In this document: positions 52,021-64,000 of the stretch, piece after piece
Position numbering within the stretch: position 1 is the first letter of the stretch
Layout of the letters: each line of letters begins with the position of its first letter
Source of the DNA: a bacterium
Lineage (GTDB): Bacteria; Hydrothermota; UBA3073; JACQXS01; JAGMCI01
Direction of reading: 5' to 3'
Assembly (NCBI GenBank): GCA_030018315.1
Contig: JASEGA010000005.1
Span: 8,351-72,350 of the forward strand
DNA length: 64,000 nt
Notes under the pieces: model-generated
Told to the model about the DNA's origin: nothing
The model's database searches: none
What the model saw: only the letters and a program-made list of their open reading frames with translations
Position numbers and translations under genes: made by a program

Positions 52021-52908
52021 TTAGAATATAATTGAACCAGAAATTCTTTTGACTAAGCCAAGGTCCGGATGGAACTTGACTCCATAATCAAGCTTTATTG
52101 TTCGATGAACTATGCCACAGCCGGCACTAAAAATTCCTTTGTCCCAACCGAGTCTAACAGCTAACCTTTGTTTCCACCAGTACTCAAACCCAATGTATGT
52201 ATCTGTGTGTAGTGGCACAATCTCAGCCACCCTTTTTTCTGGGCTTGTATCAAATCCTAAACAAATGTTTAACTTACCAACAGTAAAATTATGGACTGCT
52301 GATATTCCTGTCTTTATAAGTGGCGATATCCAATCTCTTAGAGTAGTGTCTGACCCAAAAATCTCTGTCCCTGTCAAGTTGACAATGTTTACTCCATAAG
52401 TTACACCTTTAAAATCTGATAGTATACCTAAATCTGTTCCCACTCCATACGCAGTTGCTATATCCCAATCTCTAAATATGCATTTAATATTTAAACCAAG
52501 CTTAAATTTTGTAAACTCGCGTGCGTAAGAAAAGTATCCAACATAATCACATACATCTACATATTCATTAATATTTATGCCAGCCTCAGATGAGTCTGTA
52601 ATTCCTATTTCAGGGACCCCAACCCAATAAAGTGCTACCCCTAATGTGTATGATGGAGCTGGATAAGTGATAGCAACTGTATTAGTTTGCACTATCCCGG
52701 CCTCAAAATCTTCTGAATGCATCAGGAACAGTTCACGATTTTTAACTCTCACAAGACCTGCCGGATTCCAGTAAAATGCAGTCGGGTCATCTGCAAGTGC
52801 AACAAATGCATTCCCCATTCCAAGAGCCCTTGCACCGACACCTATTTCCATAAATTCGCCTAAATATACATCACCAAAACCTAACAACAAACAAAATAGA
52901 AATAACAT
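52021..52908 (-). CDS. PorV/PorQ-family outer-membrane beta-barrel protein
   Basis: N-terminal GVGARALGMGNAFVALADDPTAFYWNPAGL signature, alternating beta-strand pattern and a terminal aromatic (..GSIIF). Confidence 0.6.
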   Translation of the reverse strand: MLFLFCLLLGFGDVYLGEFMEIGVGARALGMGNAFVALADDPTAFYWNPAGLVRVKNRELFLMHSEDFEAGIVQTNTVAITYPAPSYTLGVALYWVGVPEIGITDSSEAGININEYVDVCDYVGYFSYAREFTKFKLGLNIKCIFRDWDIATAYGVGTDLGILSDFKGVTYGVNIVNLTGTEIFGSDTTLRDWISPLIKTGISAVHNFTVGKLNICLGFDTSPEKRVAEIVPLHTDTYIGFEYWWKQRLAVRLGWDKGIFSAGCGIVHRTIKLDYGVKFHPDLGLVKRISGSIIF

Positions 52909-52956
52909 TTCTATTCTAAAATATTATATGATTACCTATTTGTCAACCAAAATAAT

Positions 52957-53001
52957 TCATTGATGTAGACAGATTGATTTCAGTCTATCTCAATGATTAT
53001 T
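52957..53001. repeat. imperfect inverted repeat containing the CAGTCTAnnTCAATGATTATT motif
   Basis: cattgatgtagac ... gtctatctcaatg. The 21-mer at 52981-53001 recurs (19/21) at 60386-60406. Confidence 0.55.
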
Positions 53002-53004
53002 CTC

Positions 53005-53033
53005 TTGACATTTGTTCGCCATTGATTTAAACT
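53005..53033 (+). promoter_or_regulatory. sigma70-type promoter for dgt
   Basis: TTGACA, 17-nt spacer, TAAACT. The predicted start falls at the left edge of the 28-bp palindrome (53036-53063). Confidence 0.5.
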
Positions 53034-53035
53034 GA

Positions 53036-53063
53036 GTAGGGGTTTGATTAATCAAACCCCTAC
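53036..53063. repeat. 28-bp GTAG...CTAC palindrome, copy 2 (perfect)
   Basis: gtaggggtttgattaatcaaacccctac, a perfect 14+14 palindrome in the dgt 5' UTR. Confidence 0.85.
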
Positions 53064-53074
53064 AATGACAAGTT

Positions 53075-54241
53075 ATGCAGACAAGGAAAGAATTTGAAGA
53101 ATTGGAAAGAAAAACACTCGCCCCTTATGCTATGAGGTCAGTTGAGACAAAGGGTAGAAAATATCATGAAGAAGAAGACCTATACAAGTCTTGTTATCAG
53201 AGGGATCGCGACCGTGTCATCCATTGTACTGCATTTCGTAGACTTGAGTATAAGACACAGGTATTTGTTAACCATGAAGGTGATTACTATCGGACAAGAC
53301 TTACTCATACAATTGAAGTGAACCAGATTGCACGCACAATTGCACGTGCCATGAGACTAAACGAAGACTTAGTTGATGCTATATCACTTGCTCATGATAT
53401 TGGACATACACCATTTGGACATGCAGGCGAGGAAGCATTAGCTGAGCTTATGAAAGATAGAGGCGGCTTTGAACATAATCGGCAGGGATTAAGAGTAGTA
53501 GATGAGCTTGAGGAGCGGTATCACGGCTTTTGTGGGCTTAATCTCACATTTGAAACAAGAGAAGGAATAGTTAAGCACTCTACTGTATATGATATACCAA
53601 ACCTTGATGGTCTTCCTGAATTCCTGCCACCATCAGCACCGACACTTGAAGCTCAGGTGATAAATGTAGCAGATGAAATTGCGTATAACTCACATGACCT
53701 TGATGACGGCTTAAAGGCAGGCTATATTACTCTTGACCAATTAAAGCAGGTTACTCTATGGGATGAGCTATACTCCAAAATAAAGGAAGATTTTAAAGAG
53801 GTGAGACCTCAAGATGAGACACTATTGATTCATAAAACAATAAGAGCTCTTATAAATAGACAGGTTACAGATATGATTAACTATACAGATAGTAAAATAA
53901 AGGAACTTGGAATAAAATCAGTTGATGATGTAAGAAAACATAAACTGATAGTTAAGTTAAGTCCAAATGAGATGAGGCTACAGCGTGAGCTTAAAGATTT
54001 TCTTTTTAATAATCTCTATCTTCATTATAAAGTGGTCAAGATGAAGAACAAAGCAAGAAGGTATGTAGAAGCCCTTTTTAAGTTATATATTGATGATTTA
54101 AGACAACTTCCACCTGATTTTACTGCCCATCTTAAGCATACTGATAAATATCAAGTAGTCTGTGATTATATAGCAGGTATGACCGACCGCTATGTTCAGG
54201 ACGAGTATGAGCGTCTATTTATGCCATATACTAAGATGTAA
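53075..54241 (+). CDS. dgt: dGTP triphosphohydrolase-like HD-domain protein
   Basis: Motifs RDRDRVIHC.AFRRL..KTQV, LAHDIGHTPFGH and DLDD. Confidence 0.85.
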   Translation: MQTRKEFEELERKTLAPYAMRSVETKGRKYHEEEDLYKSCYQRDRDRVIHCTAFRRLEYKTQVFVNHEGDYYRTRLTHTIEVNQIARTIARAMRLNEDLVDAISLAHDIGHTPFGHAGEEALAELMKDRGGFEHNRQGLRVVDELEERYHGFCGLNLTFETREGIVKHSTVYDIPNLDGLPEFLPPSAPTLEAQVINVADEIAYNSHDLDDGLKAGYITLDQLKQVTLWDELYSKIKEDFKEVRPQDETLLIHKTIRALINRQVTDMINYTDSKIKELGIKSVDDVRKHKLIVKLSPNEMRLQRELKDFLFNNLYLHYKVVKMKNKARRYVEALFKLYIDDLRQLPPDFTAHLKHTDKYQVVCDYIAGMTDRYVQDEYERLFMPYTKM

Positions 54242-54309
54242 GATAGGGGGATAAGTATGTTGATAATATTGTTCGGAGTCTTGTTACCTGTTCTTTTCAT
54301 TCTTTTCTC

Positions 54310-54624
54310 ATGATATATTTTAGAAGAACGGAGACGCGACCAGACCTTGTAAGGCCCTCTAAATTAGTTACAACTGGCCCATATAGTACTGTAAGGCATC
54401 CTCAATATGCAGCAGGTATAATTTTTATCATTGGCTGGTTTTTAATTTGGGGTGGAATTTATAGCCTTTATGTGATGCCAATATTGATTATCTCCATATT
54501 GTTCCAAGCTCTTGTTGAAGAGAAATATATCTTAGAAAAGGAATTTGGAGATGGATACATAGAATATAAGAAAAAAGTAGGGATGTTTTTCCCAAAAAGG
54601 AGGTATCATGAAAAGGTTATATAG
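54310..54624 (+). pseudogene. C-terminal part of an ICMT/PEMT-family membrane methyltransferase (N-terminus missing or split)
   Basis: LVTTGPYSTVRHPQYAAGII...EEKYILEKEFGDGYIEYKKKV. It is only 104 aa. A separate 18-codon TM mini-ORF (54257-54313, MLIILFGVLLPVLFILFS*) lies just upstream in another frame. Confidence 0.5.
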
Positions 54625-55525
54625 CAAATTTTGTTTTCTTTTGATATTTTTAACTTCTATTTCTCTTGCAGATAGGGGGATGATTTCAATTACAAGACCT
54701 GATATCTCAATATATGAGCCGGGTCAAAAAGCAATTATTGGGTGGGATGGTAATAATGAAGTTATGATACTTGCAGTAGATGCGCGTGCAGATACTGAGT
54801 GTAAGGTGCTTGAAATACTGCCTCTACCGTCAAAGCCTACAGTAGACGAGGGTAATTTTAAGTCGTTTGAAGAAATACAGCGTCTGATAAGGAAAAATGC
54901 ACCCAGAATTGAAGCCCTCTACAAAGGAAGGGAACTGTTAGCACCCGGAGTTGAAATACTATTTCATAAGAAAATTGGACCCCATAACATTACTTGTGTC
55001 AAAGCTCTGGAATACCGCGAATTTGTGAATTGGATACTTAACTTTGTAAAGAGTCAAGGCGTAGATACTATTTCTATGCCTCACGAGCTCCTATATATTA
55101 TCAACAACTACTTAAGAAATGGCATACAGCACTTTGTTTTTGATATTGTAGAACTTAGCAAAGAGACAAATAGTATAGTGCCTCTTATTTACAAGTTTAA
55201 ATCTCCTTACTTATTCTTCCCATTACATATTTCAACTCTTGCAAAAGGGGACACGAGGATACAGGTATTCCTTGTTACTAAACATATTCCATGGCCGACA
55301 GCAGTTGAGCCATTTAGGATTGGTAAATACAGAGCTTACGGACCAAAAAGAGAGGGTGACATTATTTTCAAGGTCACAAAAGATGAGCTGAAGTCAATAG
55401 AACCTGCACTTGCAAAACTTATAAGGAACGATGCATGGCTTACAGCAATTGAATTTGAAGGCAATATAAGTGAACTCACAACTGACCTAAAGCTTAATAA
55501 GTTTTGTAAAATAATAGAAGAATGA
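54608..55525 (+). CDS. secreted hypothetical protein (possibly DUF2330-like)
   Basis: Signal peptide MKRLYSKFCFLLIFLTSISLA. The family assignment is weak, resting on the pattern Q.AIIGWDG..E.MIL......D......LPLPS.P.V. Confidence 0.3.
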   Translation: MKRLYSKFCFLLIFLTSISLADRGMISITRPDISIYEPGQKAIIGWDGNNEVMILAVDARADTECKVLEILPLPSKPTVDEGNFKSFEEIQRLIRKNAPRIEALYKGRELLAPGVEILFHKKIGPHNITCVKALEYREFVNWILNFVKSQGVDTISMPHELLYIINNYLRNGIQHFVFDIVELSKETNSIVPLIYKFKSPYLFFPLHISTLAKGDTRIQVFLVTKHIPWPTAVEPFRIGKYRAYGPKREGDIIFKVTKDELKSIEPALAKLIRNDAWLTAIEFEGNISELTTDLKLNKFCKIIEE

Positions 55526-55563
55526 AAATAAATGACGAAATCCCAATGACTAATGACGAATAT
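55520..55563. repeat. ATGACGAA-type oligo-repeat tract
   Basis: gaatgaaaataaatgacgaaatcccaatgactaatgacgaata. Confidence 0.6.
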
Positions 55564-55578
55564 TTTGATATTTGCATT

Positions 55579-55612
55579 CCTGCCCGCCGGTAGGCAGGTT
55601 AATTTTTAATTT
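55579..55612 (+). terminator. intrinsic terminator
   Basis: CCTGCC-cgccggta-GGCAGG followed by ttaatttttaatttta. Confidence 0.6.
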
Positions 55613-55630
55613 TATTTAAGGAGGTGTGCT

Positions 55631-57835
55631 ATGTTAAACATAATTTTATCCACTATTTTGTTCGCATCAGTTGGCTTTGAGGGTAGTTCTGTAAGCACTG
55701 CGAGGAGAGCAGGTTCTATATTTATTAATCCCGGTGGACTTGGAATAAATATGGGATACGAGTCAATATATGAGTTTAATGATGGTTGGCATAATGTTGG
55801 ATTATGTATAGGGAATGTAGGATTGGGAGTTAAATTAAAGGATGGAATGAGACCTAATTTTGTGACTGTGACGGGGTCTAAGATTAGGGAATCAGTTTGG
55901 CTTGGATATGGGTATAAATTTGGAGCTTCCAAAGGAGGTGCGACCTCAAGCTATGAACTTGGAGCTATATATAGACCAAAAAAATTTGTCTCATTCGGCC
56001 TACGGACATCACTTGAAACTAAACCAGAACTAAGAGTAGGCACAGGACTTAGACCATGGACTGATAAAGTTACGGTGTTTTTGGATGCCATATACAAGAA
56101 TTCACTTAAAAATTATCTGTATGGGATTGGGATTGAGCCAATTGATGGGATTATACTATCTTTTAAAGGAAATGAAGAAGGTGAAATAAAAATTGGTTTA
56201 GAAATATTGCTTGAAAAAGTAAAAATTGGGGGTAGCTCATACCGTGTCATGCTGAACGAAGTGAAGCATCTCAAAAGTGATGCATTTGTGCTCCTTTCAC
56301 GTGATAAATATCCGAGTTTTAAGCGTCCAGCAAAGAAGTTGGTTGAGCTTACTATCAAGGGGTCTTATCCTGAAATGAAGGAAACTGCTAAGTATTTAGG
56401 ACTCCAAACTACGAGGGAGCCCGCCTTTTATAATCTTCTACACAACATTGAATTACTCAGAAATAGGGAAGATGTAAATGGGCTACTTATCAACTTTGAG
56501 CCACATTCACTAAGTATAGCACAAGCTGAGGAGCTACGAGCTGAGCTAATTGAATTTAAGAAGGCTGGCAAAAAGATTATTACATTCTCAAATGAGTATG
56601 GACTTAGGAGCTACTATTTAGCTTCAACTGCAGATTATATTATCCTTACACCACTTGGAGATGTGATGATTCCAGGGCTTATGGCAATGAGGGTGTATAT
56701 AAAGGGAACACTTGATAAACTTGGTATTGAAACTGATATTGAGAGGGTAGGAAAATATAAATCTGCATCTGAAATATTTGAAAGAAAGGATATGTCAGCT
56801 GAAGATAGGGAGCAAGTTGAGTCATATCTTGACGATATATGGAACCCTATGATTACGGAGATTGCAGAGAGTAGACAAATGGAAGTAGCTAAATTTGATG
56901 ACCTTATAAATAAAGGTGTGTATTTTAATTCTGACGATGCACTTGATTCAGGGCTTGTAGATACACTTGCTTACAAGTGGGAAGTTGATGATGTAATTAA
57001 AGGGGTTATGGGTAAAAAGCTAAAAAAGGAGTCAATTGATAAATTCTTGGCTAAGAAAGAAGTCCCAAGAACTTGGAAAGAAGAGAAACAAAAAATTGCC
57101 ATCCTAATGGCTGAAGGTTTAATAGTGACTGGTGAGAGTGGATACAACCTTACACCAATAATAGGCGGTAAGTATATGGGCTCAGAGACTATAACTGACA
57201 TGCTTAACAAAATAAGAGATGACAAGTCTATAAAGGCACTGGTATTTAGAGTAAATTCAGGTGGTGGAATTGCTTTGGCATCTGAGATAATAGCACGGGC
57301 ACTGAAGAGGGTATCTGAAAAGAAGCCTGTCATCGTGTCAATGAGTGGAGTTGCAGGCTCTGGTGGTTATTATATCTCATGTCTTGGTGATAAAATTGTT
57401 GCTGATAGGTTTACTCTCACTGGCTCAATAGGGGGGCTTGGTATAAACCTTGTCATGAAAGGGCTTTATGACAAGCTTGGGCTATCATGGGATACGGTTA
57501 AGATGGGTGAACATGCAGATTACTTATCTGGCCTGAGACATCTTACTAAAGAGGAGCGTGAAAAATTTAGACACGATGTTGAGTGGTATTATGAGAAGTT
57601 TGTAAGTCGTGTCTCAGAAGGGAGAAGACTCACGACTATGCAGGTAGATTCAATTGGACAGGGCAGAATATGGAGTGGCATAAGGGCAAAGGAAATTGGA
57701 CTTGTAGATGAGATTGGTGGCTTACTTAAAGCAATTGAAATTGCCAAAAAGCAGGCTGGAATAAAAGAAGCTGACCTCATGATTTTCCCAAAACCTGAGA
57801 AAAAATTCTCACTTAAACTCAGCCCAAGATTTTAG
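55631..57835 (+). CDS. sppA: signal peptide peptidase SppA (67K type, two S49 domains) with about 200-aa N-terminal beta-barrel-like extension
   Basis: AAGGAGG SD. S49 blocks are VGKYKSASE (Lys domain) and SMSGVAGSGGYYISC (Ser domain). The N-terminus STARRAGSIFINPGGLG plus alternating beta strands resembles the PorV/PorQ-type start. Confidence 0.8.
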   Translation: MLNIILSTILFASVGFEGSSVSTARRAGSIFINPGGLGINMGYESIYEFNDGWHNVGLCIGNVGLGVKLKDGMRPNFVTVTGSKIRESVWLGYGYKFGASKGGATSSYELGAIYRPKKFVSFGLRTSLETKPELRVGTGLRPWTDKVTVFLDAIYKNSLKNYLYGIGIEPIDGIILSFKGNEEGEIKIGLEILLEKVKIGGSSYRVMLNEVKHLKSDAFVLLSRDKYPSFKRPAKKLVELTIKGSYPEMKETAKYLGLQTTREPAFYNLLHNIELLRNREDVNGLLINFEPHSLSIAQAEELRAELIEFKKAGKKIITFSNEYGLRSYYLASTADYIILTPLGDVMIPGLMAMRVYIKGTLDKLGIETDIERVGKYKSASEIFERKDMSAEDREQVESYLDDIWNPMITEIAESRQMEVAKFDDLINKGVYFNSDDALDSGLVDTLAYKWEVDDVIKGVMGKKLKKESIDKFLAKKEVPRTWKEEKQKIAILMAEGLIVTGESGYNLTPIIGGKYMGSETITDMLNKIRDDKSIKALVFRVNSGGGIALASEIIARALKRVSEKKPVIVSMSGVAGSGGYYISCLGDKIVADRFTLTGSIGGLGINLVMKGLYDKLGLSWDTVKMGEHADYLSGLRHLTKEEREKFRHDVEWYYEKFVSRVSEGRRLTTMQVDSIGQGRIWSGIRAKEIGLVDEIGGLLKAIEIAKKQAGIKEADLMIFPKPEKKFSLKLSPRF

Positions 57836-57845
57836 TATTTTTCAT

Positions 57846-58613
57846 GTGAGGTGTGCCATATTTAGGTTAATTGTTAAAGGTGTGATAACTGCTGTGATTG
57901 TGTTACCTTTATGTAGCCTTGCTTCTTTTGAGGCTATAGATTGTGAGCAGGAAAGTGTATTTGAGAATCCAGTATTGAGTATTAAACCTGGGCTTCAGTC
58001 CATATGGGTACAGGCTTTTGGAATCCTTCCTTATACAAGAGTCAGTTATTCTGCTCGACGCCTTGGAGTCGGGGTTTCAAACTTTGGTAATAATGATTAT
58101 AGGGAGAATGAAATTCTATTAGGCTATAGTATAATGAAAGCTAATACAGTGTTCGGTATATCGGCTCGTGCAATGAACTTATGGATAAATGGTTATGGGT
58201 CAGATTTTGCACTCGGAATTGATATTGGGACAAATTTTCAGGTTACACATTCTACAAATTTTTATCTCACTCTATCAAATATCAATTTACCAAAAATCTC
58301 AGGTGAAGAAATCCCAAGCAGGGTTATGGGCAACTTTGTTATAAACCCCAGTCCTGACTTCAAGCTTACTGTCTCATTATACAAAGAATCGTGGTATCCA
58401 ACAGAAGTTAGACTAAGTAATGAGATTAAACTATCAGCTCTTCTCAGTCTTATGGTAGGGTTAAAGAGCTATCCACAATCATTTAGTTTTGGTATTTTAC
58501 TTTATCCTGGCAGGTTTGACATCTCATACAATGCAAGAACACATCCAACACTTGGGCTTACACATATATTTGGACTAAATATGAAAACAGACATTTTGTA
58601 TGAGGGATTGTAG
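57846..58613 (+). CDS. putative outer-membrane beta-barrel protein
   Basis: Signal-like N-terminus and alternating hydrophobic beta-strand pattern throughout. The start codon is uncertain (GTG 57846 or GTG 57882). The stop TAG lies inside palindrome copy 3. Confidence 0.4.
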   Translation: MRCAIFRLIVKGVITAVIVLPLCSLASFEAIDCEQESVFENPVLSIKPGLQSIWVQAFGILPYTRVSYSARRLGVGVSNFGNNDYRENEILLGYSIMKANTVFGISARAMNLWINGYGSDFALGIDIGTNFQVTHSTNFYLTLSNINLPKISGEEIPSRVMGNFVINPSPDFKLTVSLYKESWYPTEVRLSNEIKLSALLSLMVGLKSYPQSFSFGILLYPGRFDISYNARTHPTLGLTHIFGLNMKTDILYEGL

Positions 58614-58637
58614 GGGTTTGATTAATCAAACCCTTAT
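58610..58637. repeat. 28-bp GTAG...CTAC palindrome, copy 3 (3' arm degenerate)
   Basis: gtaggggtttgattaatcaaacccttat. The track ORF 58600.. reads it as RGLINQTL. Confidence 0.75.
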
Positions 58638-58647
58638 AGGTTCCAAT

Positions 58648-59289
58648 ATGGATTTAATTAAATTAATATTTATATTAAGTTTACAATTTACACAAGAGGA
58701 GCTTGTATACTTGGCAAGTTTTGGCTTCATAGATGCAGGTGAAATAAAGCTTGACCTAAAGAGAGACTCTTTAAATTATATAAGGTGTGAACAAGAGACA
58801 AAGGGACTCTTTTCTCTTGTTTACAGGGTTAAAGACTGGTATGAGTCTACTTCGGATAGTAATTTTGTTACCAAAAGATTTGAAAAAAGTGTAAGAGAGG
58901 GTCCCTATAGTGCATACCAACTTGTTAGTTTTAAAAATGGTTATGCCACATATCAGGATGGTGATTCAGTGTCTACAATTCAGAATGCTAAGGATATAAT
59001 AAGTATCATATATTGGTTGAGGCTACAGGAGCTCATCCCGGGGGATACACTCATAGTCCCTCTGCACACGGATAAGTGGAATTATGAAATCAAGGTTTGT
59101 GTTGAAAGTGATACTTTAGATGGGAAGCCCTGTATTCTTGTAATACCGGACCTTCATGGGATAAGAGCTTTTGGGACACAGAGTGGGCTTATGCTTTATT
59201 ACAATGAATTAAAAATACCGGTGCTACTCAAGATTAAGTTCGCATGGGGGTATATACAGGCTAGACTTACACACAGAGAATGGAGATGA
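58648..59289 (+). CDS. hypothetical protein (possibly DUF3108-like)
   Basis: I prefer the ATG at 58648 (MDLIKLIF...) because the upstream part of the track ORF is the palindromic repeat. The family call is weak. Confidence 0.3.
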   Translation: MDLIKLIFILSLQFTQEELVYLASFGFIDAGEIKLDLKRDSLNYIRCEQETKGLFSLVYRVKDWYESTSDSNFVTKRFEKSVREGPYSAYQLVSFKNGYATYQDGDSVSTIQNAKDIISIIYWLRLQELIPGDTLIVPLHTDKWNYEIKVCVESDTLDGKPCILVIPDLHGIRAFGTQSGLMLYYNELKIPVLLKIKFAWGYIQARLTHREWR

Positions 59290-59294
59290 GATAT

Positions 59295-59309
59295 ATCTGT
59301 TTAAATCAA
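59295..59309. repeat. 15-bp inverted-repeat arm upstream of manC
   Basis: atctgtttaaatcaa is the exact reverse complement of 60344-60358. Confidence 0.7.
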
Positions 59310-59314
59310 TAAAT

Positions 59315-60340
59315 ATGGTTTATGGAGTAATTCTTGCTGGAGGACGAGGGGAGCGGTTTTGGCCTGAGTCAAGGAGGAAGCATCCTAAACAGCTACTCCC
59401 AATTGTGTCTTCTCAACCAATGTTACTCGAAACTGTAGATAGGATACTCCCACTCATCCCAATTGATAGAATTATTATAGTTGCTGGCAAAGAACTAAAG
59501 TCATCTATTAAGAAACTACTTCCTAATGCGTGTTTACTATTAGAGCCATTTGGTAGGAATACTGGCTGTGCCATTGGGTATGCCACTATTAACCTCAATC
59601 CGGCTGATATAATGGTTGTACTTCCAGCAGACCATTACATCCCGGACCGGGGCAAGTTTTTGCAAGCACTGGATGTAGCAATCAAATTTGCTAAAAAAGG
59701 ATGGCTCACAACATTTGGGATTGTGCCTACACGTGCAGAAACTGGGTATGGTTATATAGAAATAGGAAATAAGATAGATATAAATGTATATGAGGCAAAA
59801 GGATTTAAGGAGAAACCAAATCAAAAACAAGCTCAAAGTTTTGTCCGTGAGAAGCGATTTCTTTGGAATTCAGGTATGTTTATATGGACTCAAAAGAATA
59901 TACTCAATGCTTTTCGTACCCATATGCCTGAGTTATACCAGGATCTATTAAATTTTAGAGCCAAAAAGATTTCGCTTCTTACTCTTTATAGGAGAGCCTC
60001 AAATATATCTATAGATTACGGAGTAATGGAGAAGGCAACAAATGTGGCTGTCGTGAGATCAAACTTTATTTGGGATGATATTGGGTCGTGGCTTGCACTT
60101 GAGCGGCTTTACAAGGCAGACAAGTACGGGAATATAAAGGCCGGCCTCCATAAAGGGCTGGGGACAAGGAACTGTATCGTTGTCTCAGATAAAGGGGCTA
60201 TTGCTACTATTGGTATATCTAATCTTATTATTGTTAAGAGTAAGGATGCAGTCTTTGTGTGCGACAAGCATAGAGTAGGAGATATTAAAGAACTTGTACG
60301 TGAACTATCGCAAGACAAAAAGTTTACAAAGTATCTGTAA
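59315..60340 (+). CDS. manC: mannose-1-phosphate guanylyltransferase
   Basis: LAGGRGERFWP, LPADHYI and the nucleotidyltransferase fold, 341 aa. Confidence 0.8.
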   Translation: MVYGVILAGGRGERFWPESRRKHPKQLLPIVSSQPMLLETVDRILPLIPIDRIIIVAGKELKSSIKKLLPNACLLLEPFGRNTGCAIGYATINLNPADIMVVLPADHYIPDRGKFLQALDVAIKFAKKGWLTTFGIVPTRAETGYGYIEIGNKIDINVYEAKGFKEKPNQKQAQSFVREKRFLWNSGMFIWTQKNILNAFRTHMPELYQDLLNFRAKKISLLTLYRRASNISIDYGVMEKATNVAVVRSNFIWDDIGSWLALERLYKADKYGNIKAGLHKGLGTRNCIVVSDKGAIATIGISNLIIVKSKDAVFVCDKHRVGDIKELVRELSQDKKFTKYL

Positions 60341-60401: not shown

Positions 60402-61556
60402 TTATTTGCGGAAATTTATGCTTATTTGTGTATAAGCTGGAACTTTACATTTTACAGTTTGACTCTCTAATTCTTGATTAGCTTCAGATGGCTGTGGGTA
60501 ACAGTACACTCTGCCTAAGTAGTTTCTAAATATAACCTTCTCTTTACTTACTTTTATCAGATTATTTGGCGTTATAGCTACTTTACCACCGCCCCCAGGG
60601 CTATCAATAACAAAGTGAGGGACAGCCAGCCCAGAAGTGTAACCAGCTAAATTTTTCATTATTTTCAAGCCCTCCTCCACTCTTGTACGGAAGTGTTTTG
60701 TTCCTAATGTTAGGTCAGCCTGATAGATATAATATGGCTTTACCCTTATAGTTAGTAGTTTAAGCATCAATTGCTTAATAGTAGATGAGTCGTCATTAAC
60801 TCCTCTTAAGAGCACAGTTTGGTTACCGAGAGGTATTCCTGCATCAGCTAATGTTATACATGCTTTACTGGACTCAGTTGTTATCTCGTCTGGATGATTG
60901 AAATGTGTATTAATATAGAGTGGATGATACTTCTTTAGCATATTGACAAGTGTATTAGTTATCCGTGAAGGTAAAGTTACTGGCACACGTGTTCCTATCC
61001 TTATTATCTCAACATGCTGAATTTGGCGAAGTGGTTGCAATATTCTTTCAAGCTTTTCGTCTGTCAAAAGTAGTGGGTCACCTCCTGACAGGATAACATC
61101 TCTCACGCTTTTGTGGTCTTGAATATATCGTAACCCATCCTGTATGCTATCTTCGTTAATAATTGATGGTCGTCCTATTCTACGTTTCCTTGTACAGAAC
61201 CTGCAATATATAGCACACTGATTAGACACAATGAATAGCACTCTGTCAGGATAGCGGTGGACAAGGTTTCTGACTGGGCTATCTCTTTCTTCATTTAATG
61301 GGTCTATTACACCTTCAGTATCTAAAAGTTCTAATGGGTCTGGTATAGCTTGTTTCCAAAGTGGGTCTCCCGGATTACGAATGAGTGATAGATAATACCG
61401 GGTGATTCGCATTGGATACTTTTTAACTACATCTTCAATTAGGTCAAAATCGTAGTCTTCAAACATTCTTTCCCGTAAAACGGGATTAGAAAAGTAGCCT
61501 TTGAGGTCGGTAACGCTTCTCACACTCTTCTTTAACTCTTCTTGCCATGTCTCCAT
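60402..61556 (-). CDS. kamA: lysine-2,3-aminomutase-family radical SAM / PLP enzyme
   Basis: CAIYCRFCTRKR (CxxxCxxC) and SPGGGGK (PLP lysine). Asp is retained in ADLTLG and VIDSPGG. 384 aa. Confidence 0.85.
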   Translation of the reverse strand: METWQEELKKSVRSVTDLKGYFSNPVLRERMFEDYDFDLIEDVVKKYPMRITRYYLSLIRNPGDPLWKQAIPDPLELLDTEGVIDPLNEERDSPVRNLVHRYPDRVLFIVSNQCAIYCRFCTRKRRIGRPSIINEDSIQDGLRYIQDHKSVRDVILSGGDPLLLTDEKLERILQPLRQIQHVEIIRIGTRVPVTLPSRITNTLVNMLKKYHPLYINTHFNHPDEITTESSKACITLADAGIPLGNQTVLLRGVNDDSSTIKQLMLKLLTIRVKPYYIYQADLTLGTKHFRTRVEEGLKIMKNLAGYTSGLAVPHFVIDSPGGGGKVAITPNNLIKVSKEKVIFRNYLGRVYCYPQPSEANQELESQTVKCKVPAYTQISINFRK

Positions 61557-61583
61557 ATTAATGCAGGTCTCCTTGGTCCCTGT

Positions 61584-61609
61584 CCCCGCCCCTATGCATA
61601 GGTGCGGGG
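61584..61609 (-). promoter_or_regulatory. GC-rich hairpin spanning the GNAT stop codon, upstream of the kamA SD
   Basis: ccccgcccctatgcataggtgcgggg has about 10-bp arms with one mismatch. This is exceptional GC content for this window. Confidence 0.55.
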
Positions 61610-62086
61610 TATATCTTTCATATAAATAAGTTTATCATCACCTACTTTATAGAAATCCGGTATTTTTGCTATTAATTTGTATCCCTTTTTAGTGTAGAAC
61701 TGGCGTGCCTTTTCATAGTCATCTTTTGAAGATGTCTCAATAAAAATCTTGCGTCCCCCTCTTATTTTTATATCTTCCTCCAGCTCCTTAAGCAAGCGTG
61801 AACCAAATCCTCGATATTGGCTATCTTTACGTACTACTATCCAGTAAATATCAAAGACACCATCAGTTAGTGGTGTTCGTCCATAGCAAGCATAGCCTTC
61901 CAATCTGCCACTATCGTCAGTAGCAATCTTAAATAGATATTCAACCTCCTCTTCCTTATGTTGACTTAATCCATATGATACAAGTTCAAGTGCGCATCTG
62001 ATTTCTTCATCTGTAAAAAGACCTGTTTCTTCTACCAAAGTCTTTATATCTTGGTAATCAGACGGCAATAACTCTCTTATCTTCAT
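61592..62086 (-). CDS. GNAT family N-acetyltransferase
   Basis: MKIRELLPSDYQDI... and the acetyl-CoA motif Q/RxxGxG/A-like YRGFGSRLL. A GGAGG SD sits 6 nt upstream of the ATG at 62086. It overlaps the upstream gene by 29 nt. Confidence 0.75.
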   Translation of the reverse strand: MKIRELLPSDYQDIKTLVEETGLFTDEEIRCALELVSYGLSQHKEEEVEYLFKIATDDSGRLEGYACYGRTPLTDGVFDIYWIVVRKDSQYRGFGSRLLKELEEDIKIRGGRKIFIETSSKDDYEKARQFYTKKGYKLIAKIPDFYKVGDDKLIYMKDIPRTYA

Positions 62087-63107
62087 ACTTGCCTCCCCCA
62101 ATAGGAGTTAAGACGAGTACCTTTTCTTCCATCCCCAGTGATATAATTTGTGTAATAAGGTCTGTATAACTTAAACCAGCTGCCCGTGCTGCCCTTGCAA
62201 AGCCTGCTTCATAAGATATATCCGGGTTGGGATTAACATCAATGATAAAAGGCTTACCTTCTTTATTTAGTCGCATGTCAATTCTGGCATAGCCACGTAA
62301 ACCCAACACTTTAAAAGATTTAATTGCAATATCCTCCATTTTCTTTTTCTCGTCTTCTTTAATTATTGCTGGACAAACCGGCTTTGTGCGCTTGTATTCC
62401 ATACTCTCTGTTTCCCATTTAGCTCGATAAGTCACAATTCGAGGTAAGTCACTTTTCCAGCGTAGGAATTTTATTTCTGACAGAGCCAAAATTTTTGGGT
62501 TCTCATTCCCTAAGAGACTAACAGAGATTTCTCGTCCGTCAATAAAAGACACTACCAGTGCTTGCTCGTTTAACTCATCAAAAAATTTTGTTAATGCCAA
62601 TTGTAATTCTTCGTTATTGTTGACAACAGATTGCATATTAATACCAATACTTGCATCCTGTCTTCTCGGTTTGACAATAGCTGGAAAACTGGACCAGTCA
62701 ACCTCAGATGGTGAGTTAACCACTTCAAATTGAGGTGTAGGTAATCCTGCTCCCGTAAGTATATATTTTGTGTAAACTTTATCCATACAAATACCTAATG
62801 CCAAAGCTGTATTCCCTGTAAATGGTAGGCGGCTTGCTTCAAGGAGTGCAGCAAATTGGTATTCACCACTTGCATCGTCTGAAATACCTTCTACTAAATT
62901 AAATACAATATCCGGATTGATGCGCTTAATTTCTTTGATAGCTAAATAAGGGCCTTCTTTCACTGGAATGCATACAACATCATAACCTGTATTAATGAGT
63001 GCCCCTTTTACATACTTTATTTCTTGGTATACATTTGACTCATTAGCTAAAAAATGAGAGCCATCAACCACAGATTCACGTAAGTTGTATGCAATTACCA
63101 CCTTCAT
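62058..63107 (-). CDS. D-alanine--D-alanine-ligase-family ATP-grasp enzyme (paralogue 2)
   Basis: MKVVIAYN.., the central ATP-grasp region IVKPRRQDASIGI, and RIDMRL..EGKPFIIDVNPNP...GLSYTDLI. It has a TGATG stop/start overlap with paralogue 1. Confidence 0.75.
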   Translation of the reverse strand: MKVVIAYNLRESVVDGSHFLANESNVYQEIKYVKGALINTGYDVVCIPVKEGPYLAIKEIKRINPDIVFNLVEGISDDASGEYQFAALLEASRLPFTGNTALALGICMDKVYTKYILTGAGLPTPQFEVVNSPSEVDWSSFPAIVKPRRQDASIGINMQSVVNNNEELQLALTKFFDELNEQALVVSFIDGREISVSLLGNENPKILALSEIKFLRWKSDLPRIVTYRAKWETESMEYKRTKPVCPAIIKEDEKKKMEDIAIKSFKVLGLRGYARIDMRLNKEGKPFIIDVNPNPDISYEAGFARAARAAGLSYTDLITQIISLGMEEKVLVLTPIGGGKYEDKRVIAV

Positions 63108-64000
63108 CACATTTTACTCTTTGATTTTTGATATTTGATATCACTAAGCCGCCACCGTTTGGCAGAAATATTGAGTACAGCATTAATAAGGTCAGTGTAT
63201 GACATCCCCTTAGCACGCGCTGCTTTTGGGAAGCAAGAATTATCCTCAGGACGCGGCAAAATACCTGGGAGTGGATTGACTTCTATTACATTGAGGACTC
63301 CATTAGAATCAAGTCTTAAGTCAATTCTACACCAATCCTTTATGTCAAGCACTTCCCATGTTTTACGACAGGTAGCTTCAATCTCCATTTTTAGGCTATG
63401 CGAAATCTTCGCCGGGCATTCAAATATATTTAGTGGTTTATCCGGTGTATCCCATACCCATTTAGCTTCGTATGAATAGATAGGAACAGCTTCCTTTGGT
63501 AGGGCATCAAATTTCATCTCAACAATTGGTAATATTTCAAGATTAGGTAGGTTGCCAAGTAAAGCGCATGTAAATTCACGGCCTATGATAAATTCCTCTA
63601 CCAAAGCCGGTTGCTGGTATAGGCCTACACATTTGGTAACCAATTCCTTAAGCTCTTTATAAGAATAAGCTACTGAGTGGTTATTAATCCCTTTACTTGA
63701 CCCTTCCCTGACTGGTTTAACAATAAGTGGGAACTCTAAATCAACTAATTTAGCTGAATAAGAATTAAACACTTGGAAGCGTGGGGTTGGTATTTTGTGA
63801 TAAGATAGTATTTCTTTAGTCCTTGCTTTATCAAGACATATAGCTAATGTAAGTGGATTTGACCCAGTATAAGGGATGCCAAGCATCTCAAGTATAGCTG
63901 GCATCTGTGATTCTCTTGCTATCCCGTTGGTACCCTCAGCAATATTGAAGACAATGTCTACATTTGACTGGCGTAGAAATTCAAAAGCATCAGCATTTGC
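63107..64000 (-). CDS. D-alanine--D-alanine-ligase-family ATP-grasp enzyme (paralogue 1; N-terminus runs off the window end)
   Basis: LEMLGIPYTGS, IVKPVREGSSKGI, and RIDLRLDSNGVLNVIEVNPLPG...GMSYTDLI. The frame stays open upstream of M63904 to position 64000 (ANADAFEFLRQSNVDIVFNIAEGTNGIARESQ). Confidence 0.75.
   Translation of the reverse strand, partial: ANADAFEFLRQSNVDIVFNIAEGTNGIARESQMPAILEMLGIPYTGSNPLTLAICLDKARTKEILSYHKIPTPRFQVFNSYSAKLVDLEFPLIVKPVREGSSKGINNHSVAYSYKELKELVTKCVGLYQQPALVEEFIIGREFTCALLGNLPNLEILPIVEMKFDALPKEAVPIYSYEAKWVWDTPDKPLNIFECPAKISHSLKMEIEATCRKTWEVLDIKDWCRIDLRLDSNGVLNVIEVNPLPGILPRPEDNSCFPKAARAKGMSYTDLINAVLNISAKRWRLSDIKYQKSKSKM

What the first reader, a model, noticed from the sequence alone, without database searches (positions are those of the whole stretch)
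60402..64000. Tightly coupled cassette: two Ddl-like ATP-grasp ligases, a GNAT and a lysine-2,3-aminomutase-type radical SAM enzyme
Seen in the sequence:
- Four co-directional minus-strand genes are packed with overlapping or abutting codons. There is a TGATG stop/start junction at 63105-63109.
- The GNAT ATG at 62086 has a GGAGG SD and lies 29 nt inside ATP-grasp 2.
- Only a 35-nt spacer, occupied by a GC-rich hairpin, separates the GNAT from the KamA-type gene.
- The KamA-type protein has the CAIYCRFC cluster motif and the PGGGGK PLP-lysine motif. It keeps acidic residues in ADLTLG and VIDSPGG. In Clostridium subterminale KAM these positions (Asp293/Asp330, from memory) hold the lysine epsilon-ammonium, so beta-lysine is the expected product.

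Established knowledge: KAM plus a GNAT (ablA/ablB) make the osmolyte N-epsilon-acetyl-beta-lysine in methanogens and some bacteria. That pathway needs no ATP-grasp enzyme.

Inference: two paralogous D-Ala-D-Ala-ligase-family enzymes welded to a KamA/GNAT pair suggest ATP-dependent ligation of beta-lysine (or its acetylated form) to another amino acid or to itself. The product could be a beta-lysine-containing di- or tripeptide, an osmolyte variant, or a cell-envelope modification that I cannot match to a described pathway. The cassette is cut by the window edge, so more genes may belong to it.
Basis: partly seen in the sequence, partly recalled or inferred. Interest (0 to 1): 0.7.

Follow-up and report, generated by a model that had tools for sequence, protein, structure and literature searches.

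The report
Conserved beta-lysine ligase operon, product unknown
Four tightly packed genes (two ligases related to the D-alanine ligase, a small acetyltransferase and a lysine 2,3-aminomutase) form an operon kept together in many anaerobic bacteria and some archaea; it probably builds an undescribed small molecule from beta-lysine, but nobody has identified the product.

Summary
A longer public contig shows that the cut gene is the first gene of a four-gene operon: AG1, AG2, GNAT, KamA.

Of 80 species-representative genomes anchored on an AG2 relative, 60 have a KamA gene within 10 kb. Forty of them have the same four genes in the same order and spacing. They span Ignavibacteriota, Bacteroidota, Kryptonia, Aminicenantes, Acidobacteriota and Geobacteraceae. 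Rearranged or fused variants occur in Dehalococcoidia, Deltaproteobacteria, Bathyarchaeia and ANME-type archaea.

- KamA keeps every lysine 2,3-aminomutase catalytic and substrate residue. It is not EpmB-like or glutamate-type.
- Both ATP-grasp proteins keep the catalytic residues of D-alanine ligase, but they fall below the Ddl family thresholds and have altered substrate pockets.
- The GNAT is not AblB. Its closest solved relative is the uncharacterised PDB entry 2R7H (Dde_3044).
- The hairpin has no T-tract.
- No paper in the searchable library describes the cassette.

Most likely the operon makes beta-lysine and joins it by two ATP-dependent amide bonds plus an N-acetylation into a small peptide-like metabolite, perhaps a stress solute. 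The chemistry is inferred, not shown. The window's own AG2 is unusually divergent.

The parts
63107..64000 (-). AG1: first gene of the operon, a Ddl-like ATP-grasp ligase. The window holds the 3' 297 codons. The full gene is 348 aa (L001:97-1143, TTG start).
   Evidence: Pfam Dala_Dala_lig_C E 7e-35. NCBIfam Ddl subfamily model: 179.8 bits against a cut-off of 243. Keeps the DdlB equivalents K97, K144, S150, E187, K215, R255, D257, E270, N272, G276 and S281, with H63E, E68R, Y216W and M259R. Orthologues in other phyla are 50-61% identical.
62058..63110 (-). AG2: second Ddl-like ATP-grasp ligase, a paralogue of AG1 (40% identity). The start is ATG 63107 or GTG 63110 and overlaps the AG1 stop.
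   Evidence: Pfam Dala_Dala_lig_C E 3e-35. NCBIfam Ddl subfamily model: 151.6 bits against a cut-off of 243. AlphaFold model pLDDT 88, with Ddl structures as best Foldseek matches at 20-26% identity. The AG2 family differs from Ddl by S150A, G276D, S281A and L282G. The window's copy differs at 6 of 44 columns that are invariant in 40 other AG2 sequences.
63105..63109 (-). TGATG stop/start overlap between AG1 and AG2 (translational coupling).
   Evidence: The median AG1-AG2 gap in 40 canonical loci is -4 nt.
61592..62086 (-). Small GNAT N-acyltransferase (164 aa) of the 2R7H/Dde_3044 type. GGAGG lies at 62096-62092. The first 29 nt overlap AG2.
   Evidence: PDB 2R7H: E 2e-34 for the single sequence, 5e-52 for the family profile. 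AlphaFold pLDDT 95, and the top Foldseek match is 2R7H with TM 0.86-0.93. No AblB model hit. Fused to AG2 in Bathyarchaeia (P0123) and to an AdoMet_dc domain in ANME-type archaea.
61584..61609 (-). GC-rich hairpin spanning the GNAT stop codon. Not terminator-like; possibly an mRNA-stability or translation-tuning element.
60402..61556 (-). KamA-family radical SAM / PLP lysine 2,3-aminomutase homologue (384 aa), last gene of the operon. It is convergent with a mannose-1-phosphate guanylyltransferase-like gene at 59315-60340 (+).
   Evidence: TIGR00238 306.7 bits against a cut-off of 199.2. AblA model 467.6 against 525.4. Glutamate-type 413.7 against 650. EpmB 243.8 against 369.3. 2A5H E 1e-115. 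C125, C129, C132, R134, D293, D330 and K337 are invariant in 39-41 cassette-linked homologues, and the Zn-site Cys268 is replaced.

Best explanation
This is a self-contained four-gene operon for ribosome-independent synthesis of a small amide-linked metabolite built on beta-lysine.

1. KamA converts free L-lysine to beta-lysine by radical SAM/PLP chemistry.
2. AG1 still looks like a two-amino-acid ligase of the Ddl type. It uses ATP to form an acyl-phosphate and joins beta-lysine to a second amino compound.
3. The GNAT acetylates an amino group with acetyl-CoA.
4. AG2 has a remodelled acceptor pocket and is fused to the GNAT in some archaea. It makes a second amide bond, probably with the N-acetylated partner.

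The architecture suggests two modules: AG1+KamA and AG2+GNAT. The product would be an N-acetylated beta-lysine-containing di- or tripeptide-like compound. [quoted passage not shown]

Shown here: gene linkage, family assignments, and conservation of catalytic and substrate residues.
Inferred: every substrate other than lysine, the order of the steps, the product and its role.
For: Linkage
- 60 of 80 AG2-anchored species genomes have KamA within 10 kb. Forty have the identical order AG1-AG2-GNAT-KamA, with conserved overlaps and short gaps.
- In the reverse direction, 25 of 42 KamA-anchored metagenome loci with enough flank carry the ligases.
- Rosetta-stone fusions: AG2::GNAT in Bathyarchaeia and GNAT::AdoMet_dc next to an AG1-type ligase and KamA in ANME/Syntrophoarchaeum.
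- No other gene is conserved next to the cassette, so the pathway starts from common metabolites.

Enzymes
- KamA: the residues that hold lysine's alpha-carboxylate (R134) and epsilon-ammonium (D293, D330), the PLP lysine and the cluster cysteines are invariant. This points to free lysine as substrate.
- AG1 and AG2: both keep the ATP/Mg and acyl-phosphate residues. They form two distinct orthologous groups with different pocket residues, which implies two different ligations.
- GNAT: it has the acetyl-CoA-binding fold.

Hints of a solute role
- An MscS-type channel gene lies beside the archaeal variant, as it does in the proven kamA-ablB-ynaI osmolyte operon (PMC11337218).
- A PAS kinase and a sigma-54 response regulator are embedded in the deltaproteobacterial variant.

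The cassette's GC content (38.5%) matches the window (37.2%).
Against: - No product, substrate or phenotype is known, and nothing in the searchable literature mentions the cassette.
- The GNAT is absent from the deltaproteobacterial variant, and AG2 is absent from the ANME variant, so the product may differ between lineages.
- Six AG2-anchored loci lack a KamA in the available flank.
- KamA relatives of the same clade also occur with other partners.
- The source habitats are mostly groundwater, freshwater sediment and hot springs rather than saline sites. No osmolyte-type riboswitch was found in 20 loci.
- The window's AG2 carries E148Q, E180V and E270D (DdlB numbering) at otherwise invariant positions. 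It may be weakened or retuned in this organism.
Confidence: 0.5

Rival explanations
1. Protein or peptide modification. The ATP-grasp enzymes attach beta-lysine (or amino acids onto it) to a side chain or terminus of a protein, as RimK, LysX or tubulin-tyrosine-ligase-type enzymes do. The RimI-like GNAT acetylates the same target.
For: The GNAT's best curated match is RimI (46.6 bits, below the 86.4 cut-off). Beta-lysine is used for EF-P modification in other bacteria (established knowledge). Many ATP-grasp families modify proteins.
Against: No candidate substrate gene or small carrier protein is conserved beside the cassette. The ligases belong to the Ddl branch, whose known members act on small molecules. 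The KamA homologue is not EpmB-like. The cassette occurs in archaea as well as bacteria, so no single translation-factor target fits.
Confidence: 0.12
2. Oligomer or polymer synthesis. One or both ligases act iteratively to make oligo-beta-lysine or a branched cyanophycin-like polyamide, with the GNAT capping or priming the chain.
For: There are two paralogous ligases, as in the two ligase activities of cyanophycin synthetase. Epsilon-linked beta-lysine oligomers exist in streptothricins (established knowledge). No further substrate-supplying gene is present in the operon.
Against: Ddl-type enzymes have closed two-substrate pockets. No depolymerase or granule-associated gene is conserved nearby. 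AG1 keeps the residues that hold a free alpha-type carboxylate on the acceptor (S281, K215, R255).
Confidence: 0.12
3. Exported specialised metabolite. The cassette would be a minimal biosynthetic cluster for an antibiotic-like or metal-binding beta-lysine peptide.
For: A 2,3-aminomutase paired with an ATP-grasp ligase occurs in nucleoside-antibiotic clusters such as blasticidin S (from memory, not tested here). L-amino acid ligases make dipeptide antibiotics (established knowledge).
Against: No exporter, resistance or regulator gene is conserved. The cassette is stably syntenic within whole lineages, for example after recG in 25 Ignavibacteriota/Bacteroidota loci. Its composition matches the host. 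This pattern fits core physiology better than a mobile cluster.
Confidence: 0.08
4. Two unrelated functions that merely sit side by side: a Ddl pair for cell-wall D-Ala-D-Ala, and a KamA/GNAT pair for N-epsilon-acetyl-beta-lysine or lysine fermentation.
For: Automatic annotations call the genes D-alanine-D-alanine ligase and lysine 2,3-aminomutase.
Against: - The ligases miss the Ddl cut-offs and differ at D-Ala pocket positions: Y216W and H63E in both, plus S150A, S281A and L282G in AG2.
- The cassette occurs in Bathyarchaeia, which are archaea; they are not known to make murein (established knowledge, not tested here).
- The GNAT is not AblB.
- No kamDE/kdd/kce lysine-fermentation genes were found in the conserved neighbourhood.
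- Overlapping codons and fusions tie the four genes together.
Confidence: 0.05

Closest known systems
[quoted passage not shown]
   Same: A KamA-family lysine 2,3-aminomutase with all catalytic and lysine-binding residues sits in one operon with an acetyl-CoA-type GNAT. An MscS channel gene lies beside the archaeal variant, as in the Methanoperedens kamA-ablB-ynaI operon.
   Different: - The aminomutase is below the AblA equivalog cut-off (467.6 against 525.4 bits). It is shorter (384 aa against about 441 aa) and lacks the Zn-site cysteine.
- The GNAT is a different subfamily (164 aa against about 289 aa; no AblB model hit).
- Two ATP-grasp ligases are added, which the AblAB pathway does not need.
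D-alanine--D-alanine ligase (Ddl) and Van ligases
   Same: Same three-domain ATP-grasp fold. Ddl structures are the best structural and sequence matches. The ATP/Mg and acyl-phosphate residues are conserved.
   Different: - 20-30% identity, with scores 60-95 bits below the family cut-offs.
- Changed pocket residues.
- Present as a conserved paralogue pair tied to KamA and a GNAT, not to mur/fts genes.
- Also present in archaea.
N-acetylglutaminylglutamine amide (NAGGN) synthesis by Ngg, a GNAT fused to an ATP-grasp ligase
   Same: Same logic: an N-acetylated dipeptide solute made by a GNAT plus an ATP-grasp ligase. The two activities are fused in one protein in some lineages, here AG2::GNAT in Bathyarchaeia. 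The comparison with Ngg rests on established knowledge, not on a test here.
   Different: No sequence relationship to Ngg was tested or seen. There is no amidotransferase partner. A beta-amino acid supplied by a radical SAM mutase is involved, and there is a second ligase.
Pyrrolysine biosynthesis (PylB radical SAM lysine mutase, PylC Ddl-like ATP-grasp ligase, PylD)
   Same: A radical SAM enzyme rearranges lysine, and a Ddl-related ATP-grasp ligase then joins the rearranged amino acid through an amide bond (established knowledge).
   Different: PylB is not a KamA-family, PLP-dependent aminomutase. No PylD-type dehydrogenase is present. No PylC structure appeared among the sequence matches at E <= 0.001.
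PDB 2R7H (Dde_3044, Desulfovibrio desulfuricans/alaskensis G20), 'putative D-alanine N-acetyltransferase'
   Same: Same GNAT subfamily as the window's GNAT: 41-45% identity over the full length, profile E 5e-52, TM 0.86-0.93.
   Different: It is a structural-genomics entry without a tested function. Whether Dde_3044 sits in the same cassette could not be checked with these tools.
EpmB/EpmA beta-lysylation of EF-P
   Same: A KamA-family enzyme makes beta-lysine that is then ligated through an amide bond in an ATP-dependent step (established knowledge).
   Different: The window's enzyme scores 243.8 bits on the EpmB model (cut-off 369.3). The ligases here are ATP-grasp enzymes, not a lysyl-tRNA synthetase paralogue. 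No efp gene is linked.

Membership tests
KamA family radical SAM/PLP aminomutases (TIGR00238) | Score at or above the curated cut-off. CxxxCxxC cluster motif. PLP-binding lysine in PGGGGK. | tested here: met
   306.7 bits against a cut-off of 199.2. C125, C129, C132 and K337 equivalents are present and invariant in the cassette family.
Lysine 2,3-aminomutase AblA/KamA equivalog (TIGR03820) | Score at or above the equivalog cut-off. | tested here: not met
   467.6 bits against a cut-off of 525.4. It is still the best-scoring model.
Lysine 2,3-aminomutase AblA/KamA equivalog (TIGR03820) | Residues that bind lysine: Arg134 (carboxylate) and Asp293/Asp330 (epsilon-ammonium). | tested here: met
   All three align and are invariant in 39-41 cassette-linked homologues.
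Lysine 2,3-aminomutase AblA/KamA equivalog (TIGR03820) | Inter-subunit zinc site (Cys268 plus a C-terminal CxCxxC), as in 2A5H. | tested here: not met
   Cys268 is Asp, Asn or Glu in the cassette family. No CxCxxC is seen in the C-terminal 30 residues.
Lysine 2,3-aminomutase AblA/KamA equivalog (TIGR03820) | Enzyme converts L-lysine to beta-lysine. | not testable with these tools
   Needs an anaerobic enzyme assay.
EF-P beta-lysylation enzyme EpmB (TIGR03821) | Score at or above the equivalog cut-off. | tested here: not met
   243.8 bits against a cut-off of 369.3.
Glutamate 2,3-aminomutase (TIGR04368) | Score at or above the cut-off. Asp293/Asp330 replaced by Lys/Asn (the replacement is recalled from the literature). 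| tested here: not met
   413.7 bits against a cut-off of 650. Both Asp residues are retained.
Beta-lysine N6-acetyltransferase AblB | Match to an AblB model. Length of about 270-290 aa. | tested here: not met
   No AblB family is listed among 17 NCBIfam matches at E <= 10. The window's GNAT is 164 aa, against an 870-bp ablB (PMC11337218).
GNAT superfamily acetyltransferases | Pfam GNAT domain above the gathering score. GNAT fold. | tested here: met
   PF13508 38.8 bits against 27, and PF00583 37.2 against 20.7. AlphaFold model pLDDT 95, matching GNAT structures.
D-alanine--D-alanine ligase (NF002378 / TIGR01205) | Score at or above the subfamily cut-offs. | tested here: not met
   AG1: 179.8 and 154.1 bits. 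AG2: 151.6 and 148.1 bits. Cut-offs are 243 and 245.65.
D-alanine--D-alanine ligase (NF002378 / TIGR01205) | ATP-grasp catalytic set (DdlB K97, K144, E187, K215, R255, D257, E270, N272). | tested here: met
   Invariant in 41 AG1 and in 40-41 AG2 sequences. The window's AG2 has E270D.
D-alanine--D-alanine ligase (NF002378 / TIGR01205) | D-Ala pocket residues (E15-S150-Y216 triad, H63, S281, L282). | tested here: not met
   Y216W and H63E in both families. AG2 also has S150A, S281A and L282G. AG1 keeps S150 and S281 but has L282C. The E15 equivalent is conserved at >=90% in AG1 and only 60-90% in AG2, and the alignment there is uncertain.
D-alanine--D-alanine ligase (NF002378 / TIGR01205) | Makes D-Ala-D-Ala / complements a ddl mutant. 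| not testable with these tools
   Needs an enzyme assay or a complementation test.
NAGGN synthase Ngg (GNAT + ATP-grasp) | Sequence membership in the Ngg family, with an AsnO-type amidotransferase partner. | not tested
   No Ngg model appeared among the listed matches, but only the best 25 of 41-81 families were shown. No amidotransferase is conserved nearby.

The most novel reading that the evidence does not exclude
The cassette makes a previously unknown class of beta-lysine-containing N-acetyl peptide solute or polyamine-like conjugate. It would be produced by hundreds of species of uncultured anaerobic bacteria and by Bathyarchaeia and ANME archaea. AG1 and AG2 would define two new substrate specificities within the Ddl branch of ATP-grasp ligases, one of them accepting a beta-amino acid.
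Probability: 0.4. Interest if true: 0.7.

Novelty: new variant of a known kind. Interest (0 to 1): 0.6.

Why it matters
The four-gene order is kept across at least six bacterial phyla, with variants in two archaeal groups. Even so, every source calls the genes only 'ATP-grasp protein', 'D-alanine ligase', 'RimI-like' or 'KamA family'.
- Annotation: identifying the product would remove a recurrent mis-annotation of extra 'Ddl' genes in anaerobe genomes.
- Enzymology: it would extend the substrate range known for Ddl-type ligases to beta-amino acids.
- Physiology: it might reveal a new stress metabolite of subsurface and sediment microbes.
- Tractability: only four genes and common precursors are involved, and the GNAT type has a solved structure from a genetically tractable sulfate reducer.

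Tried and rejected
- Riboswitch or leader search: Rfam at gathering thresholds on 20 cassette loci (141 kb) found only a tRNA and a group II intron. No lysine, Na+ or c-di-AMP riboswitch was found.
- Terminator between the GNAT and KamA: none by the scan.
- Literature: ten full-text searches combined aminomutase, KamA, beta-lysine, ATP-grasp, GNAT, osmolyte, D-alanine ligase, Ignavibacteria, Desulfovibrio and 2R7H (one was rejected for syntax). None found a description of the cassette.
- The 2009 survey of ATP-grasp amidoligases (PMC3268129) may mention it, but the paper is not held.
- Three papers that looked promising covered only ordinary ablA/ablB or generic regulon lists: Pelobacter genome, Na+ riboswitch and sigma-54 regulon.
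- Extra conserved neighbours (transporter, carrier protein, decarboxylase) in the bacterial loci: none. MscS and AdoMet_dc queries from the archaeal variant found nothing in the 80 bacterial/archaeal GTDB loci.
- The 79-aa ORF in L084 looked like a possible carrier protein. It is the N-terminal half of a split GNAT::AdoMet_dc gene.
- PADLOC and PHROGs scans were not run. Nothing pointed to defence or phage.

Full report
**1. What is in the window**

Four co-directional minus-strand ORFs fill 60402-64000.
- A KamA-type gene at 60402-61556 (384 aa).
- A 164-aa GNAT at 61592-62086.
- An ATP-grasp gene, AG2, at 62058-63110.
- A second ATP-grasp gene, AG1, from 63107 to the window edge.

- The AG1 stop and AG2 start share TGATG at 63109-63105.
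- The GNAT start at 62086 follows GGAGG (62096-62092) and lies 29 nt inside AG2.
- A 35-nt spacer separates the GNAT from KamA.

The hairpin is real (61609-61584; the 101-nt fold gives -25.4 kcal/mol, z = -2.85). It straddles the GNAT stop codon, has no T-tract and is not called terminator-like.

**2. The operon is complete**

The KamA protein is also encoded on an 11.2-kb public contig, L001.
- It extends 1143 nt past the window.
- AG1 is a complete 348-aa gene with a TTG start after AAAGAGG.
- The 96 nt upstream hold TTGACA, an 18-nt spacer and TATATA.
- Downstream, KamA is convergent with a nucleotidyltransferase gene.

The unit is therefore four genes.

**3. Family assignments**

KamA
- It passes only the general KamA model: 306.7 bits against a cut-off of 199.2.
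- The lysine 2,3-aminomutase equivalog scores best but stays below its cut-off: 467.6 against 525.4.
- Glutamate-type scores 413.7 against 650, arginine-type 335.5 against 600, and EpmB 243.8 against 369.3.
- It aligns to the C. subterminale enzyme 2A5H at E 1e-115.
- In 41 cassette-linked homologues the cluster cysteines, Arg134, Asp293, Asp330 and Lys337 never vary. The zinc-site Cys268 is replaced.
- This argues for free L-lysine as substrate and beta-lysine as product.

AG1 and AG2
- Ddl is their only close relative in Pfam, NCBIfam and the PDB.
- They score 150-180 bits against cut-offs of 243-246.
- They are 28-30% identical to E. coli DdlB and 40% identical to each other.
- The AG2 model (pLDDT 88) matches Ddl structures best, at 20-26% identity.

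GNAT
- It is not AblB. No AblB model appears even at E <= 10.
- The proven ablB gene is 870 bp (PMC11337218).
- Its one close solved relative is 2R7H, Dde_3044 of Desulfovibrio desulfuricans G20, an uncharacterised structural-genomics entry.

**4. Is the linkage more than chance?**

I scanned one genome per GTDB species with an AG2 alignment.
- In the best 80 loci, tblastn with the four window proteins found KamA within 10 kb in 60.
- Forty loci had the canonical order AG1-AG2-GNAT-KamA.
- Median gaps in those 40 are -4, -25 and +18.5 nt.
- The canonical loci come from Ignavibacteriota, Melioribacteraceae, Bacteroidota, Kryptonia, a Chlorobiaceae MAG, Aminicenantes, Acidobacteriota, Geobacteraceae and others.

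Of the 20 loci without KamA:
- Fourteen belong to a separate lone AG2-like paralogue. It sits divergently from a C39-like peptidase.
- Six are partial or KamA-less cassettes, several of them cut by contig ends.

A KamA gene occurs about once per genome, so chance adjacency would be well under 1%.

**5. Variant architectures carry information**

- Dehalococcoidia: KamA-AG1-AG2-GNAT.
- Bathyarchaeia: an AG2::GNAT fusion protein (P0123, 495 aa) lies divergent from AG1-KamA.
- A deltaproteobacterial group: AG1, then a PAS histidine kinase, a sigma-54 NtrC-type regulator and a receiver, then KamA-AG2. There is no GNAT.
- ANME-type Halobacteriota and Syntrophoarchaeum: an AG1-type ligase, a GNAT::AdoMet_dc fusion and a 511-516-aa KamA with a partial internal duplication. 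An MscS-type channel gene is adjacent or within 3 kb.

These patterns suggest two modules, AG1+KamA and AG2+GNAT. The second can be exchanged.

**6. Reverse direction**

I anchored on KamA in metagenome contigs.
- 25 of 42 loci with at least 2.6 kb of upstream flank carry the ligases.
- In a neighbour-joining tree of 138 sequences, cassette-linked KamAs make up most of the clade.
- Two non-cassette groups nest inside it.
- One group lies next to a roughly 480-aa protein with no Pfam, NCBIfam or PDB match, plus a dCTP-deaminase-like gene. The other lies next to a tandem universal stress protein.

This KamA clade thus looks like a beta-lysine supplier that has been coupled to more than one downstream partner.

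**7. Active sites of the ligases**

I aligned 41 AG1 and 41 AG2 sequences with E. coli DbdlB's correct name, DdlB; its sequence was verified against 1IOV.
- Both families keep K97, K144, E187, K215, R255, D257, E270 and N272.
- Both replace H63 by Glu, Y216 by Trp and M259 by Arg.
- AG1 keeps S150, G276 and S281, and has Arg at position 68.
- AG2 has S150A, S274N, G276D, S281A and L282G.
- A Glu that probably corresponds to Ddl Glu15 is conserved at >=90% in AG1 (motif AE[WFC]D) and at only 60-90% in AG2. In Ddl, Glu15 holds the first substrate's ammonium.

I read this as follows. AG1 is a classical amino-acid-plus-amino-acid ligase. AG2 accepts a donor without a free ammonium, for example an N-acetylated one, which fits its fusion to the GNAT. 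This is inference from alignment only.

**8. A peculiarity of this organism**

- The window's AG2 differs at 6 of 44 columns that are invariant in the other 40 AG2 proteins. These include E148Q, E180V and E270D in DdlB numbering.
- Its median identity to the others is 37%. They are about 49% identical to one another.
- AG1 differs at only 1 of 66 invariant columns.
- AG2 is intact and translationally coupled, so it is probably expressed. Its activity may be altered.

**9. Mechanism proposed**

The steps are lysine to beta-lysine (KamA), an ATP-dependent amide bond involving beta-lysine (AG1), N-acetylation (GNAT) and a second ATP-dependent amide bond (AG2). The result would be a small N-acetylated beta-lysine peptide.

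A protective-solute role is the leading guess.
- The only established KamA+GNAT product is an osmolyte.
- GNAT plus ATP-grasp chemistry makes the osmolyte NAGGN.
- The pathway needs no other dedicated gene.
- The archaeal variant sits by an MscS channel gene.

Against this, most source habitats are not saline, and no osmolyte-type riboswitch was found. I put 0.5 on the small-metabolite mechanism and about 0.3 on the solute role. Rivals are listed separately: protein modification, polymer, exported metabolite and unrelated neighbours.

**10. Novelty**

- Ten literature searches found no description of the cassette.
- All database names are generic.
- The enzyme families and the type of chemistry are familiar.

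I therefore rate this as a new variant of a known kind, not a new category. One survey paper that might mention it could not be read.

**11. Organism**

- The window has 37% G+C and the cassette 38.5%.
- The nearest cassette relatives are an unclassified MAG (L008), Kryptonia and Ignavibacteriota.
- This suggests a member of, or neighbour to, the FCB group. It was not tested further.

Noticed in passing
window 62058-63110 (AG2): The window's AG2 differs at 6 of 44 positions invariant in 40 other cassette AG2 proteins (E->Q@150, E->V@186, N->S@195, D->G@272, E->D@290, R->E@328). It is only about 37% identical to them, whereas AG1 differs at 1 of 66 invariant positions. This may mean relaxed or retuned function in this organism.
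   Followed up: partly
L086:5026-8536; L087:4681-8189; L084:6043-9551: ANME-type Halobacteriota and Syntrophoarchaeum carry a variant made of an AG1-type ligase, a GNAT fused to an AdoMet_dc (pyruvoyl decarboxylase) domain, and a 511-516-aa KamA whose C-terminal half-barrel is partly duplicated. An MscS-type channel gene is adjacent. In L084/L085 the fusion gene is split into two ORFs.
   Followed up: partly
P0123 (also P0122, P0125, P0137, P0141); loci L003, L009, L027, L042, L076: Bathyarchaeia encode AG2 and the cassette-type GNAT as one 495-511-aa fusion protein. It is transcribed divergently from AG1-KamA.
   Followed up: yes
L018:8907-10927, L021:661-3352 and 9 other Ignavibacteriota/Bacteroidota loci: A lone AG2-like ATP-grasp paralogue, without KamA or the GNAT, is always divergent from a 278-aa C39-like cysteine peptidase. 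It usually has an isochorismatase-family gene beside it. This looks like a different, also undescribed, ATP-grasp system.
   Followed up: partly
L101:2817-4265; L099, L109, L120, L150, L151, L161 (gene just upstream of KamA): In KamA relatives that lack the ligases, the upstream gene encodes a roughly 480-aa protein with no Pfam, NCBIfam or PDB sequence match. It is often accompanied by a glutaredoxin-like ORF and a dCTP-deaminase-family gene (L151:9131-10279). It may be an alternative partner for beta-lysine.
   Followed up: partly
L123:6441-7370; L124, L128, L137, L149: Another KamA subgroup has a tandem universal stress protein (Usp) gene immediately downstream.
   Followed up: no
L016:3817-11020; L006, L010, L002, L048: The deltaproteobacterial variant has a PAS histidine kinase, a sigma-54-dependent NtrC-type response regulator and a stand-alone receiver inserted between AG1 and KamA-AG2. 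It has no GNAT.
   Followed up: partly
L086:1-1493 (-): A 720-aa protein combines a Ddl-like ATP-grasp domain with a Peptidase_M20 domain. It lies 3.5 kb from the archaeal cassette.
   Followed up: no
L033:6326-8524 and 24 other FCB-group loci: recG lies directly upstream of AG1 on the same strand in 25 Ignavibacteriota/Bacteroidota loci. This is probably lineage synteny rather than function.
   Followed up: partly
L040:217-514 (-): Group II intron domains (RF02001, RF01998) lie about 3 kb upstream of the cassette in one Bacteroidetes MAG.
   Followed up: no
window 52021-60340: The cassette's neighbours in the window are these genes.
- a UPF0164-type outer-membrane-like protein (52021-52908)
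- an HD-domain dGTPase-like gene
- an ICMT/PEMT-like small membrane protein
- DUF2330
- a 734-aa double SppA (Peptidase_S49)
- a 255-aa protein with no family
- DUF3108
- a ManC-like nucleotidyltransferase

None of them is conserved with the cassette elsewhere.
   Followed up: partly
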